DNA of 64,000 nt, taken from the human T2T-CHM13v2.0 reference genome, Homo sapiens. Positions within the stretch are counted from its first letter, which is position 1. Each line of letters opens with the position of its first letter. The DNA is taken from the NCBI RefSeq assembly GCF_009914755.1, contig NC_060934.1; one strand, written 5' to 3'. The notes under the pieces were generated by a model. It was given only the letters and a program-made list of their open reading frames with translations. It made no database searches and had not been told where the DNA came from. Made by a program: the position numbers and the translations under genes. Shown piece by piece: positions 30,118 to 33,290 of this stretch.

Positions 30118-30219
30118 CTTCCACTGTGGGGGACAGATACAAAAAAAGGAATCATGCAGATTGAGGCAGGTTCCACCATTCTGGCAAGGATTGCTGCTGC
30201 AAACCTTTTTGTCAACAGT
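30118..30219 (-). CDS. CUBN: Cubilin exon 5 (102 nt, most of EGF-like 1)
   Basis: tcag|ACT GTT GAC...[46 protein letters not shown]. Confidence 0.97.
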
Positions 30220-30919
30220 CTGAAACAAAAACAGGACAGTCAATGAGATGACTTGCAGTCAGCAGCAACAAAACGCATGTTACCGTGCACGTGGGATTAC
30301 ATTTAACTCTTAATCAGTGGGGGTCTCCTTCTACACTTTAAAGCCATTACTTATGTTCTTCTTCAAATCACCTCTCTTGTGAAAAAACAGAAAGCATTTT
30401 CTATTATCAATCTTGTTCCTATTCCTTAACTCTCAGCATGCTTTTGACCACGGGTGGGATGAAGTCTGAGGGGAGAAGATTCTCACTTTGTCTTGGAAAA
30501 GTATTATTCTCACCTGAGAAAGAGACCTCAGTGGACAGGAGTAAAGGTTTCAGGTGTGGAAATAATAATGGATGTTGCTATTGCACAAAGAAAATAAAAT
30601 GGAGATTCCGGTTATTTTACCGGTGATTCTTATCTTTGGTCCCTCGAGGTGAGCCTTTGAAATATAATCATCTGCTGCTGCTGCCCCTCCTCCCATGGGT
30701 TAAGGTGACTGAACTCCTGCTCCAAGTCCCTTTGTTAGAAATGTGGCCAGCTAAGACATATCTTTCACCCTGGTGCTCACCTGACTGCTTTCAGCCCAGA
30801 TCACAAACAGACCTACCTTTGTCTACATCTACATCTACATAACCTGGGGAATCTGACCCTATGTCAGCTACCAGTTTGAATCTTGTTAAGATTTTTACTG
30901 CCTTTGGGTGCAGAGAAAA

Positions 30920-31257
30920 CTTCTTTTTTTTCTTTTTTCTTTTTTCTTTTCTTTTTGATTTTTTTTTCTTTTTTTTGAGACGGAGTCTTGCTCTGTCGCC
31001 CAGGCTGGAGTGCAGTGGCGCGATCTCTGCTCACTGCAGGCTCTGCCTCCCGGGTCCATGCCATTCTCCTGCCTCAGCCTCCTAAGTAGCTGGGACTACA
31101 GGCGCCCGCCACCACGCCCAGCTAATTTTTTGTATTTTTAGTAGAGACGGGGTTTCACCGTGTTAGCCAGGATGGTCTCGATCTCCTGACCTCGTGATCC
31201 GCCCGCCTCAGCCTCCTAAAGTGCTGGGATTACAGGTGTGAGCCACCGCGCCCAGCC
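30920..31257 (-). mobile_element. AluY
   Basis: TGTTAGCCAGGATGGTCTCGATCTCCTGACCTCGTGATCCG; TSD cagagaaaacttcttt. Confidence 0.93.
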
Positions 31258-31351
31258 AGAGAAAACTTCTTTAGAGGGAACACTTGATTATGCAATGATG
31301 GCCACTTTATGAATTTCACTCATAGTCCAATTGTCTGGGTTTTGGTTGGTA

Positions 31352-31661
31352 TCGTTGTTTTGTTTGTTTGTTTGTTTTTGAGATGGAGCCTCGGTCTGTC
31401 ACCCAGGCTGGAGTGCAGTGGTATGATCTCGGCTCACTGCAACCTCCACCTCTTGGGTTGAAGCGATTCTCATGCCTCAGCCTCCTCAGTAGCTGGGACT
31501 ACAGGAATGTCCCACTACGCCTGGCTAATTTTCCTATTTTTAGTAGAGACAGGGTTCCACCATGTTGACCAGGCTGATCTCAAACTCCCGACCTCACATG
31601 ATCCACCTGCCTCGGCCTCCTAAAGTGCTGGGATTACAGGCGTGAGCCACCGTACCCAACC
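31352..31661 (-). mobile_element. AluS
   Basis: Antisense Alu consensus. Confidence 0.9.
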
Positions 31662-32468
31662 TAATTCTCTGTTTTTAAAAAGTTAAAATAGGGGCAAACT
31701 GTTGATTACATTTCATATATATGTATGCACACACATACATATATATTATATATGTGTCTATATATATGCACATACATACACACACACATACAAATACAAC
31801 ATACTATATACAGTGACTCATAAAAAAAAATTACGTCTGTTTCCTTCATTTTATGGATGAAATAGAAAGCCAGAGGATAGCCAACTGACTCAATACCATT
31901 TTCTGCAAAGCACATTCCTTCTCCACTTTGGTCATAAATTAGATGACCACACATCTGGGGGTCTCTTTATGAACCCTGTTTTATTCCATTATTCTATTTT
32001 TCTCTTTGTGCTAGCACAACAATTGGCTCTGTCCATCATAGAATGCTCTTTAAAACATTAACCACAAACTCATTCAAAGGTTTTCTGTCAGACAAAAGCA
32101 ACACTGTCTGGGGACTAAAATCTTAAAAGCCTACAGGGGCCTAGTAGAAAATGAAATCAGGAGTCAGGAGGAAGACAATAGGGAGTGGTGGGGACTGTGG
32201 TGGCCAGAGAGCATTTGCCCTATCCAAAGGCACAAAGCATTCACATTTGAAAATCATTCAACGTTCCTCCTGAGGGATGAGGGTAGGAGGACTGGCTGAG
32301 CGAATATAATGAAGCCCTCCAGGAGACAAAACTTGAGTGCAGTGTCACGGTCCACAGCACTATTCTTTACTCATTTTCTTTCGCTTAACTACTCTCTTAA
32401 AAATGACAGCTGAGGGGTCAATGTATTATCTAAGTGGAGAAAAGGAATACACGAACTTGATCATCAAA

Positions 32469-32563
32469 TGACAAAAAGGTTTGCAGCAGCAATCCTTGCC
32501 AGAATGGTGGGACCTGCCTCAATCTGCATGAGTCCTTTTTTTTGTATCTGTCCTTCACAGTGG
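32469..32563 (+). pseudogene. Inverted, frameshifted copy of the body of CUBN exon 5 inside intron 4
   Basis: Plus strand TGACAAAAAGGTTTGCAGCAGC...CACAGTGG matches exon 5 nt 6-99 (30214-30121, minus strand) with 4 substitutions and 1 extra T; no splice sites copied. Confidence 0.93.
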
Positions 32564-33290
32564 GACAGATCAAACTTAAAAGTAGAGGAAAATGCTTGAA
32601 GCATGAGCAAAACAGATGAAGAATATTTTTGCAGAAATTCTTACACTGGAATCCCCAGATTTTTATGCAAAATTTTAAACATGAAGAGATTCTGTACATT
32701 TCTCTGCATAGAAGGTTACAGCTTCCATGAAAGTCTTTAAAAGGTCAGCTTCCTACAAAAGGGGTAAGAAGCCTAAGTTTACATAGATCAGTCTACAAGC
32801 ATGTAGTACAGTTATACAATGTTTTCTGTAAGAAACTGTTCAAGTTTAATTACCAGCAAATGTCGTTTTAAGAAAATTCGGACTATTTTGTGATACACCT
32901 AGACTTCCGAGCTTAGCGTCAGAGAGGATGCTTGCTTTCCGAGCCCCAGTCCCTGATGGGAGAATCAGCAAGTTGGGAGATCACTAGCTGACCAAGCACA
33001 GCACACACAGCTAAAGGGTGATGGTAAAGGATGTGGGCTGTGGGCTGCAAACTCAGGGTCAGAAGCCCTAACAGGCTCGGAGACCTCAGCCTTGTCATTT
33101 CATCTGTCTTAGACTCAGCTCTGCATCTGCATCCTGGGAAGCACACGCTGGGATGAGAATTAAATTATGGGAAAAAGCAAGTTTTTAATATTAATCATCC
33201 ATTCACCTTCAAAATAAGAATAGCAGCTCTATTAATGATTCTAGTATGTTTTCTGTGAAAGATTTGGGTATGTAGTAGCATGAGACCTAC

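What the first reader, a model, noticed from the sequence alone, without database searches (positions are those of the whole stretch)
30121..32574. Inverted copy of CUBN exon 5 in the preceding intron: a possible built-in antisense arm for the exon
Seen: 32469-32563 (+) reproduces nt 6-99 of the 102-nt exon 5 (30214-30121, -) at 90/95. The differences are GGA>GGG, GAT>GAG, T7>T8 and CCCCCA>CCTTCA. It stops 5 nt short of the acceptor and 3 nt short of the donor, with no intron or neighbouring-exon sequence. It ends in a fold-back (ATCTGTCC-9 nt-GGACAGAT) and is bracketed by ATCAAA at 32463-32468 and 32569-32574. Inference: it lies in intron 4 in the opposite orientation, so the pre-mRNA carries the reverse complement of exon 5 about 2.25 kb upstream of the exon, transcribed first. 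A ~95-bp duplex could mask the exon body while leaving the splice sites free. Exon 5 is phase 0-0, so skipping would remove most of EGF1 in frame. The duplex could also act as an editing-complementary sequence for ADAR, with three A:C mismatches. Established: intronic complementary sequences direct exonic A-to-I editing, and long-range pairing can cause skipping.
Basis: partly seen in the sequence, partly recalled or inferred. Interest (0 to 1): 0.85.

Follow-up and report, generated by a model that had tools for sequence, protein, structure and literature searches.

The report
Inverted CUBN exon-5 copy in intron
A 95-base backwards copy of part of a cubilin gene exon really does sit in the intron just before that exon; it is most likely a harmless scar of DNA repair that could nevertheless make the RNA fold onto its own exon.

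Summary
Window 32469-32563 (+) matches nt 6-99 of CUBN exon 5 (30214-30121, -) at 90 of 95 columns. These are the only two copies in the 3.1-Gb assembly. No intron or neighbouring-exon sequence was copied.

The copy is followed by 5 orphan bases (GACAG) and bracketed by ATCAAA. It ends in an 8-nt fold-back. By chance these occur at about 2% and 0.6%. It has no poly(A) and no L1 target site.

I read it as a short templated insertion from break repair or template switching. Two more unique short local duplicates lie elsewhere in CUBN introns.

The two arms would form a -166 kcal/mol duplex, which dominates the MFE fold of the 2.6-kb pre-mRNA stretch. Exon 5 is phase 0-0 and encodes an EGF domain.

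No function is shown. A GTEx-wide catalogue of coding-sequence editing that includes kidney cortex lists no CUBN site, while its positive controls are found.

The same paper describes a comparable exon-intron duplex in ASNS, so this is a new member of a known kind.

The parts
30118..30219 (-). CUBN exon 5, 102 nt, phase 0-0. It encodes 34 aa, most of an EGF domain.
   Evidence: Hub annotation. Open translation [34 protein letters not shown]. Pfam EGF PF00008 E=1.1e-08, 35.6 bits, residues 7-31 on profile positions 1-26 of 32.
30121..30214 (-). Exon arm: nt 6-99 of exon 5, the donor of the copy and the 3' arm of the predicted duplex.
32469..32563 (+). Inverted copy of the exon-5 body, 90 of 95 columns identical. 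On the CUBN (minus-strand) pre-mRNA it reads as antisense of the exon. The reading frame is broken by the extra T.
   Evidence: In-frame translation [35 protein letters not shown].
32564..32568 (+). Five orphan bases (GACAG) between the copy and the right ATCAAA. They match neither the exon's last 3 nt, intron 5 nor exon 6. They are explained by a snap-back on ATCTGTCC.
32463..32468 (+). Left ATCAAA of the 6-nt direct repeat that brackets the 100-nt insert.
   Evidence: Such a repeat arises by chance at 2.1% of 200000 random placements.
32569..32574 (+). Right ATCAAA of the direct repeat. Its first two bases also belong to the fold-back stem.
32546..32570 (+). Fold-back at the end of the insert: ATCTGTCC, a 9-nt loop, then GGACAGAT.
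   Evidence: An 8-nt fold-back covering the 5 nt after a random point occurs at 0.56% of 200000 placements.
30220..33290 (-). CUBN intron 4, which holds the copy. The 2254 nt between the arms form the loop of the predicted structure.
   Evidence: Hub annotation.
30913..31693 (-). Two Alu elements between the arms, both sense on the CUBN strand, so they do not pair with each other.
   Evidence: Hub repeat mask. Direct-repeat families D2, D3 and D5. Sub-threshold SRP-RNA-like matches, all on the minus strand.

Best explanation
This is a 100-nt templated insertion in intron 4 of CUBN. It consists of 95 nt copied in reverse orientation from the body of exon 5, 2.25 kb away, plus 5 filler bases, and it is bracketed by a 6-nt duplication of the target (ATCAAA). 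It most likely arose once, when a broken or stalled DNA end was repaired by copying a nearby template and then snapping back on itself before rejoining. Candidate routes are template switching, microhomology-mediated break-induced replication, or polymerase-theta-type end joining. That the donor lies wholly inside an exon is best read as coincidence surfaced by looking at exons. One consequence is that the nascent CUBN RNA can fold into a near-perfect 95-bp exon-intron duplex. That duplex is a plausible minor substrate for ADAR and a plausible hindrance to exon definition. Most likely it has no selected role and only small effects, because exon 5 is included in the normal transcript and no CUBN coding-sequence editing is catalogued. 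Shown: the copy, its uniqueness, its borders, and the predicted duplex. Inferred: the repair mechanism, its neutrality, and its age.
For: The copy is real and exists in two copies only. Its borders are sharp, with no homology in 1.5 kb of flanks other than Alu. The immediate flanks are unique in the genome: one search found 1 match, and one search found only a short repeat about 240-310 nt away. The borders do not continue into exon 4 or exon 6. Junction features are those of repair. The 6-nt direct repeat has a 2.1% chance rate and the 8-nt fold-back that accounts for all 5 orphan bases has 0.56%. Fold-back templated insertions of 5-34 bp at breaks, and inverted insertions from one locus, are described in the abstract of PMC11724301. 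Templated insertions of 73-414 bp at breaks, with the donor left intact, are described in PMC5110952 (parts 1-2 of the text read). Base rate: a self-comparison of 334 kb around CUBN gave 6 two-copy pairs of at least 40 nt at 85% or more. Of the 4 that I tested against the genome, 3 are unique to this locus: this one, a 150-nt inverted pair 526 nt apart, and a 50-nt direct pair 2 kb apart. The fourth is a high-copy repeat. Such events are therefore ordinary, at about one per 100 kb here. By my arithmetic from the hub's exon table, about 1.5% of 94-nt donor positions in the CUBN part of the window lie wholly in an exon. Against strong function: 0 CUBN entries in the GTEx coding-sequence editing catalogue, with controls found. 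No paper links CUBN to editing (4 listed; 3 listed; listings only, none about CUBN editing).
Against: Confinement of the donor to the exon body is a priori unlikely for a random local template, at about 1.5% per event. I explain it only by ascertainment. Junction 1 shows no microhomology, which template-switch models usually expect. The direct repeat and the fold-back overlap by 2 nt, so they are not independent. The predicted duplex is stronger and better paired (95% paired, longest run 42 bp, -166 kcal/mol) than the median unedited non-repetitive dsRNA of the dsRNAscan preprint (75 bp, -44.6 kcal/mol). It is closer to the edited class (144 bp, -184.8 kcal/mol) (passages). Some editing or interference would therefore not be surprising. 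The editing catalogue covers coding sequence only, drops sites under 1%, uses strict alignment, and masks loci suspected of duplication. One of its supplementary files was cut when stored and two PDFs could not be read. Neutrality cannot be judged without orthologues.
Confidence: 0.6

Rival explanations
1. One reading: the copy is a working antisense arm. In nascent CUBN RNA it pairs with exon 5 and measurably lowers exon-5 inclusion, giving an in-frame isoform lacking EGF1. Alternatively or additionally, it serves as an editing-complementary sequence so that ADAR edits exon 5.
For: The duplex is -166.3 kcal/mol and dominates the MFE fold, with 89 of 95 positions paired. The arm is transcribed first and stays in the RNA until intron 4 is removed. 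Exon 5 is phase 0-0 and encodes an EGF domain. Of the 22 exonic adenosines inside the duplex, 19 would recode if edited. There is a direct precedent: an ASNS exon pairs with a 50-bp intronic complement kept in most primates and carries an editing cluster, and reversed paralogous exons serve as complements for TOR1B and CLDN9 (passages of PMC8897444). Editing enrichment rises steeply for complementary pairs below -30 kcal/mol (passages of PMC8052449).
Against: No CUBN site appears among the coding-sequence editing sites of 9125 GTEx samples, kidney cortex included, while ASNS and NEIL1 are listed. The only exonic A:C mismatch is synonymous and follows a G. The loop of 2254 nt is longer than the medians for non-repetitive dsRNAs in the dsRNAscan preprint, 509 nt for edited and 1407 nt for unedited. 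Exon 5 is in the selected RefSeq transcript, and cubilin function needs its N-terminal region (recalled). No conservation evidence could be obtained.
Confidence: 0.22
2. The insert was copied from CUBN RNA rather than DNA. A reverse-transcribed fragment of the transcript was used as a patch at a break in the same gene, as in class 2 templated sequence insertions.
For: The copy contains exon sequence only. Templated insertions at breaks are enriched for transcribed sequence and are reduced by reverse-transcriptase inhibitors (PMC5110952). There is no poly(A) tail, and filler bases sit at one junction, as in class 2 events.
Against: The insert does not cross an exon-exon junction, and its borders do not match exon 4 or exon 6, so nothing marks a spliced template. 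A donor only 2.25 kb from the insertion site favours a local DNA template. The 6-nt flanking duplication is not a class 2 feature. CUBN expression in the germ line is, as far as I recall, low.
Confidence: 0.15
3. It was inserted by the LINE-1 machinery, as a class 1 templated insertion or fragment of a processed pseudogene.
For: A flanking direct repeat of 6 nt meets the class 1 criterion of 5 bp or more.
Against: There is no poly(A) tract at either end in either orientation, no polyadenylation signal, and the target is not TTTT/A-like (compared with the criteria). No neighbouring exon is present.
Confidence: 0.03
4. It is not a real feature: a chance match, part of a repeat family, or an assembly artefact.
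For: None found. Raw reads and other assemblies could not be examined.
Against: E = 5e-38 locally. Only two copies exist in the genome. The copy differs from the exon at 5 columns, which a duplicated-read artefact would not produce.
Confidence: 0.01

Closest known systems
ASNS exon-intron duplex (Gabay et al. 2022, PMC8897444; passages read)
   Same: A coding exon pairs with a near-perfect complementary stretch in an intron of the same gene. The structure is lineage-restricted (primates). A:C mismatches arising by single substitutions shape where ADAR acts.
   Different: ASNS is 50 bp and perfectly paired, with editing actually observed in the exon and arm. The CUBN duplex is 95 bp with 5 imperfections, and no editing is catalogued. 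I could not examine the ASNS locus, so I cannot say whether its complement is also an inverted copy of the exon.
Reversed paralogous exons as editing complements (TOR1B/TOR1A, CLDN9/CLDN6; same paper)
   Same: The complement is a reversed copy of coding sequence rather than a repeat element, giving long duplexes and clustered editing.
   Different: Those complements are functional exons of a neighbouring gene reached through extended 3' UTRs. Here the complement is a dead 95-nt fragment inside the upstream intron.
Templated sequence insertions at DNA breaks (Onozawa and Aplan, PMC5110952) and fold-back or inverted templated insertions (Yu et al. 2024, PMC11724301; abstract)
   Same: A short insert (described sizes 73-414 bp) is copied from an intact donor. 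Filler bases sit at a junction, there is no poly(A), and there is a short fold-back of the 5-34 bp kind.
   Different: Described insertions mostly come from distant loci and class 2 events lack a flanking duplication. This donor is 2.25 kb away in the same gene and the insert is bracketed by 6 nt. The yeast data are somatic and experimental, not germ-line.
Conserved long-range complementary regions in human pre-mRNAs (Kalmykova et al. 2021, PMC8052449; passages)
   Same: Kilobase-range intramolecular pairing within 10 kb, associated with splicing outcome and ADAR editing.
   Different: That catalogue rests on evolutionary conservation of both arms. CUBN does not occur in the main text or in the 3 supplementary files held. 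This pair is probably young and arose by duplication.
Genome-wide dsRNA prediction (dsRNAscan preprint, PMC11838218; passages)
   Same: It scans 10-kb windows for inverted complementary arms, and a non-repetitive pair like this one falls within its scope.
   Different: CUBN is not named in its main text (0 occurrences). Its supplementary tables were not open to me, so I cannot say whether this pair is listed.

Membership tests
Exon-intron ADAR substrate (editing-complementary sequence) | An intronic stretch complementary to the exon within the same pre-mRNA | tested here: met
   Inverted pair at 30121-30214 / 32469-32563, 90 of 95 columns, both within the CUBN transcription unit.
Exon-intron ADAR substrate (editing-complementary sequence) | A stable predicted duplex | tested here: met
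   -166.3 kcal/mol; 89 of 95 arm positions pair with the exon in the MFE fold of 2601 nt. Ensemble sampling failed.
Exon-intron ADAR substrate (editing-complementary sequence) | A-to-I editing observed in the exon or arm | tested here: inconclusive
   0 occurrences of CUBN in the supplements of a GTEx coding-sequence editing catalogue, against ASNS 30 and NEIL1 41. The catalogue covers coding sequence only and sites at 1% or more; one file was cut and two PDFs were unreadable. No RNA-seq was available to me.
Exon-intron ADAR substrate (editing-complementary sequence) | Conservation of pairing across species | not testable with these tools
   No primate or other mammalian genome is held; the genome tool states that this assembly has no relatives.
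LINE-1-mediated (class 1) templated insertion or processed pseudogene fragment | Target-site duplication of 5 bp or more | tested here: met
   ATCAAA on both sides; chance rate 2.1%. Criterion from PMC5110952.
LINE-1-mediated (class 1) templated insertion or processed pseudogene fragment | Poly(A) tract with an upstream polyadenylation signal, and a TTTT/A target | tested here: not met
   The insert ends in ...CAGTGGGACAG on the plus strand and ...CCTTTTTGTCA on the minus strand. There is no A-tract and no AATAAA, and the target reads ATC/ATCAAA/CTT.
LINE-1-mediated (class 1) templated insertion or processed pseudogene fragment | Spliced exon-exon junctions | tested here: not met
   The borders do not continue into exon 4 (...GCTTGCAGCAG) or exon 6 (GGTCCTCTC...).
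Break-repair or template-switch templated insertion (class 2 TSI, MMBIR-type) | Donor intact, with one extra copy elsewhere | tested here: met
   Exon 5 is intact and open; there are exactly two copies in the genome.
Break-repair or template-switch templated insertion (class 2 TSI, MMBIR-type) | Junctions with microhomology, filler bases or secondary short templated pieces | tested here: inconclusive
   The right junction has 5 filler bases explained by an 8-nt fold-back (0.56% by chance), with 2 nt (AT) shared with the target. The left junction has no microhomology. The flanking 6-nt duplication is not typical of class 2.
Transposable element or dispersed repeat | Many copies in the genome | tested here: not met
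   2 of 2 candidates, self and exon. As a contrast, a true repeat nearby gave 1334 candidates.
Long-range RNA structure that regulates splicing | A change in exon inclusion that depends on the pairing | not tested
   This needs junction-read counts or a minigene; none were available.

The most novel reading that the evidence does not exclude
A lineage-restricted repair scar has given CUBN a built-in 95-bp antisense arm against its own exon 5. In kidney proximal tubule and ileum, a fraction of transcripts would then be hyper-edited in the EGF1 exon (19 of its 22 paired adenosines would recode), or would skip it in frame. Alleles that strengthen or remove the arm would act as hidden modifiers of cubilin output, relevant to proteinuria and vitamin B12 uptake. 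The same inverted pair could also occasionally mediate an inversion that removes the exon-5 acceptor.
Probability: 0.1. Interest if true: 0.7.

Novelty: new member of a known kind. Interest (0 to 1): 0.36.

Why it matters
Exon-intron duplexes made from unique sequence are rare next to Alu-based ones. The few studied cases (ASNS, and the reversed paralogues TOR1B and CLDN9) show that they can create new, lineage-specific editing in coding sequence. This one lies in a disease gene (Imerslund-Graesbeck syndrome and proteinuria, recalled). It is long and nearly perfect, and its junctions still show how it arose. It is therefore a clean natural test of whether a fresh exon complement 2 kb upstream affects editing or exon definition. 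The test can be run on public kidney and ileum RNA-seq and primate alignments. If nothing happens, it is a useful negative example for predictors that call dsRNA from sequence alone.

Tried and rejected
1. Repeat family: rejected, only two copies in the genome.

2. A longer duplication with decayed flanks: rejected, no non-Alu homology in the flanks at word size 7.

3. A spliced-mRNA origin marked by neighbouring exons: no trace found, so the template type stays open.

4. L1-mediated insertion: rejected for lack of poly(A) and target motif.

5. Known RNA families in 29900-33400: 20 matches at E up to 1, none reaching its gathering score. All lie in the Alus or the TA/CA-rich stretch, and none at the copy.

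6. A coding remnant in the copy: the frame is broken by the extra T. My Pfam scan of the copy gave 0 families, but it was run one base out of frame (32468 instead of 32470), so it says nothing.

7. A recombination-signal-like heptamer (CACAGTG) at the end of the copy and an A-rich nonamer-like start: noticed from memory only. Rejected because the ends are not two inward-facing heptamers and the spacing does not fit.

9. Literature on CUBN editing or exon-5 skipping: three searches gave 4, 4 and 3 papers. I saw listings for all of them and passages for PMC6309081. None concerns exon 5 or editing of CUBN; the dog paper concerns exon 55.

10. A search for 'inverted duplication' + exon + intron + 'editing complementary sequence' gave 0 papers.

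11. Ensemble (Boltzmann) sampling of the 2.6-kb fold: the partition function ran (ensemble energy -909 kcal/mol) but sampling returned nothing. It was not repeated, so only the MFE is reported.

12. Comparison with the ASNS locus in this assembly: the gene was located but its DNA could not be fetched. Whether ASNS has the same anatomy is left open.

13. Dating by divergence: 4 substitutions (possibly 3 events, since CC>TT is adjacent) plus 1 indel in 94 nt without CpG. With recalled primate rates this would suggest tens of millions of years. I do not rely on it, because error-prone repair synthesis could have introduced some differences at birth, T-run slippage among them.
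Full report
**1. The observation**

On the minus strand, exon 5 of CUBN (30219-30118) reads ACTGT-TGACAAAAAGG...CACAGTGG-AAG between a cag acceptor and a gtgagt donor. 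The plus strand at 32469-32563 carries the same sequence from TGAC to CAGTGG.

A local alignment gives 90 identical of 95 columns: four substitutions and one extra T in a T-run. The perfect runs are 42, 20, 3, 17, 0 and 8. The repeat finder reports the pair as inverted repeats I1 and I3, 2254 nt apart.

A search of the whole 3.1-Gb assembly with 161 nt around the copy returned two places only, itself and the exon. A word-size-7 comparison of 3.1 kb around each arm found no other inverted homology apart from Alu pieces.

The left and right borders do not continue into the last bases of exon 4 or the first bases of exon 6. The feature is far beyond chance (E = 5e-38).

**2. Anatomy of the insert**

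The copy is followed by five bases, GACAG (32564-32568), that match nothing in the donor. The 100 nt are bracketed by ATCAAA (32463-32468 and 32569-32574).

The last base of the copy, the five orphans and the first two bases of the right ATCAAA together form GGACAGAT. This is the reverse complement of ATCTGTCC, which lies 9 nt upstream inside the copy.

I placed 200000 random 'inserts' in the window as a control:
- A 6-nt direct repeat within 6 nt of both borders occurs at 2.1%.
- An 8-nt fold-back covering the five bases after a random point occurs at 0.56%.

The two features share two bases, so they are not independent. Together they still look like junction scars rather than noise.

There is no A-tract at either end in either orientation, no AATAAA, and no T-rich/A target. 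These are the marks of LINE-1-mediated class 1 insertions as set out in PMC5110952. The immediate flanks are single-copy in the genome (one search found only a short repeat fragment about 240-310 nt to the left), so the insert was not carried by a mobile element.

**3. How it most likely arose**

The features are:
- a short piece copied from an intact donor 2.25 kb away, in reverse orientation;
- a few filler bases explained by a snap-back;
- a short duplication of the target.

This fits templated insertion during repair of a break or a stalled fork. Templated insertions of 73-414 bp with intact donors are documented at human breaks and as germ-line polymorphisms. Very short fold-back duplications, and inverted insertions from a single locus, are documented at breaks in yeast (abstract).

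I cannot tell whether the template was DNA or RNA, because the insert reaches neither exon border. The proximity of donor and target favours DNA. The exon-only content and the published enrichment for transcribed donors keep an RNA template alive.

Confinement to the exon is unlikely for any one event. By my arithmetic from the hub's exon table, about 1.5% of possible 94-nt donors in the CUBN part of the window lie wholly in an exon. However, such events are not rare. A self-comparison of 334 kb (the window plus 270 kb of CUBN fetched) gave six two-copy pairs of at least 40 nt at 85% or more:
- Three are unique to this locus in the whole genome: this one, a 150-nt inverted pair 526 nt apart, and a 50-nt direct pair 2 kb apart.
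- One is a common repeat.
- One is a tandem 75-mer.
- One (88 nt, 86%, 36 kb apart) was not tested.

At roughly one event per 100 kb, I infer that some dozens of exon-contained cases are expected genome-wide. A reader who recognises exons will find exactly those.

**4. What it could do**

On the CUBN pre-mRNA the copy is antisense to the exon, is transcribed first, and stays until intron 4 is spliced.

- **Duplex stability.** The two arms give a duplex of -166.3 kcal/mol, against -22.6 and -19.5 for each arm folded alone. In the MFE structure of a 2601-nt stretch, 89 of 95 arm positions pair with the exon body. The partition function ran, but structure sampling failed, so I report the MFE only.
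- **Exon content.** Exon 5 is phase 0-0 (hub coding lengths). Its 34 residues match Pfam EGF over 26 of 32 profile positions.
- **Mismatches.** The duplex has three A:C mismatches, one U:C mismatch and one bulged A. The single exonic A opposite C is the third base of a Gly codon and follows a G, so the site most favoured by the mismatch is silent and in a poor neighbour context (the neighbour preference is recalled).
- **Recoding potential.** Nineteen of the 22 paired exonic adenosines would recode if edited promiscuously.
- **Splice sites.** In the MFE model the 3' splice-site region is not free but pairs with 30680-30788. I give this little weight.

**5. Evidence on function**

I found none in favour.

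Gabay et al. 2022 (PMC8897444) screened 9125 GTEx samples from 47 tissue types for coding-sequence editing at 1% or more in at least one tissue (section 6 read). Their supplementary tables include kidney-cortex samples and list ASNS (30 occurrences) and NEIL1 (41), but CUBN does not occur. This has limits:
- one of the three held files was cut when stored, and two PDFs were unreadable;
- the catalogue excludes intronic arms;
- its strict alignment and duplication filters could hide heavily edited reads.

Searches for CUBN with A-to-I, RNA editing or ADAR, and for cubilin with exon skipping and exon 5, gave 4, 3 and 4 papers. None concerns this exon (listings only; passages of PMC6309081 concern exon 55 in dogs).

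CUBN is absent from the main text and the 3 held supplementary files of the conserved long-range pairing catalogue. It is also absent from the main text of the dsRNAscan preprint, whose supplementary tables I could not open.

In that preprint's summary table the CUBN duplex resembles edited non-repetitive dsRNAs in energy and pairing, but it has a longer loop (2254 nt against medians of 509 edited and 1407 unedited). About 4,600 of about 497,000 predicted non-repetitive dsRNAs are edited at all.

**6. Comparison with what is known**

The closest described case is in the same Gabay paper. An ASNS exon pairs with a perfectly complementary 50-bp intronic stretch that is kept in most primates. A single intronic G-to-A change created an A:C mismatch and a cluster of exonic editing sites in Homininae. 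Reversed paralogous exons serve as complements for TOR1B and CLDN9 (passages).

The idea of a reversed coding copy acting as an editing complement is thus in print, and the CUBN pair is a further, unstudied instance. I located ASNS in this assembly but could not obtain its DNA. Whether the ASNS complement is likewise a templated inverted copy remains open.

**7. Age**

No other mammalian genome is held (one search states that the assembly has no relatives here), so presence in other primates, the empty site and conservation could not be examined.

The 4 substitutions and 1 indel in 94 CpG-free bases would, with recalled primate rates, suggest tens of millions of years. However, repair synthesis is error-prone. 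The adjacent CC>TT and the T-run slip may date from the event itself, so the insert could be much younger, even polymorphic.

**8. Verdict**

The feature is real, single-origin and cleanly delimited. It is best explained as a repair-derived templated insertion that happens to copy an exon body.

It creates a strong potential exon-intron duplex whose effect on editing and splicing is untested. It is not visible in the one large catalogue I could consult.

It is a new member of a known kind. It merits a quick look in public RNA-seq and primate alignments, but there is at present no evidence that it is a regulatory device.

Noticed in passing
window 57566-57639 and 57643-57717: A tandem duplication of a 75-nt unit at 92% identity, 4 nt apart. 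It lies inside the span given by the hub for exons of other TRDMT1 transcripts (57262-58640).
   Followed up: no
L020:39-188 and L020:714-862 (G000 C10:16962039-16962188 / 16962714-16962862; outside the window, within CUBN): A second unique inverted pair in CUBN: 150 nt, 92% identical, 526 nt apart, only these two copies in the genome. By eye the sequence looks intronic and non-coding. It would also form a long hairpin in the pre-mRNA.
   Followed up: partly
L025:6288-6337 and L025:8324-8372 (G000 C10:17018288 / 17020324; outside the window, within CUBN): A unique 50-nt direct duplicate at 94% identity, 2 kb apart, with only two copies in the genome. This is another short local templated duplication.
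   Followed up: partly
window 30913-31263, 31352-31693, 33675-34091: Three Alu elements in introns 4 and 3, all in the same orientation (sense on the CUBN strand). No inverted Alu pair competes with the exon-copy duplex in this stretch.
   Followed up: partly
window 31708-31811: A TA/CA-rich low-complexity stretch with imperfect palindromes. It gives several miRNA-family matches (mir-297, mir-466, mir-568 and others), all well below their gathering scores.
   Followed up: no
window 33291-33304 and 30194-30207: The last 14 nt of exon 4 (...GCTTGCAGCAG) resemble nt 13-26 of exon 5 (GTTTGCAGCAGC) at 13 of 14, in direct orientation. This is probably chance (E = 3.4).
   Followed up: no
window 29342-29368 and 30160-30186 / 32497-32523: The neighbouring EGF exon 6 shares a 27-nt stretch at 78% with exon 5, and so also with the inverted copy (D8 and I6). 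This is ordinary paralogy between EGF exons. The arm could pair weakly with exon 6 as well.
   Followed up: no
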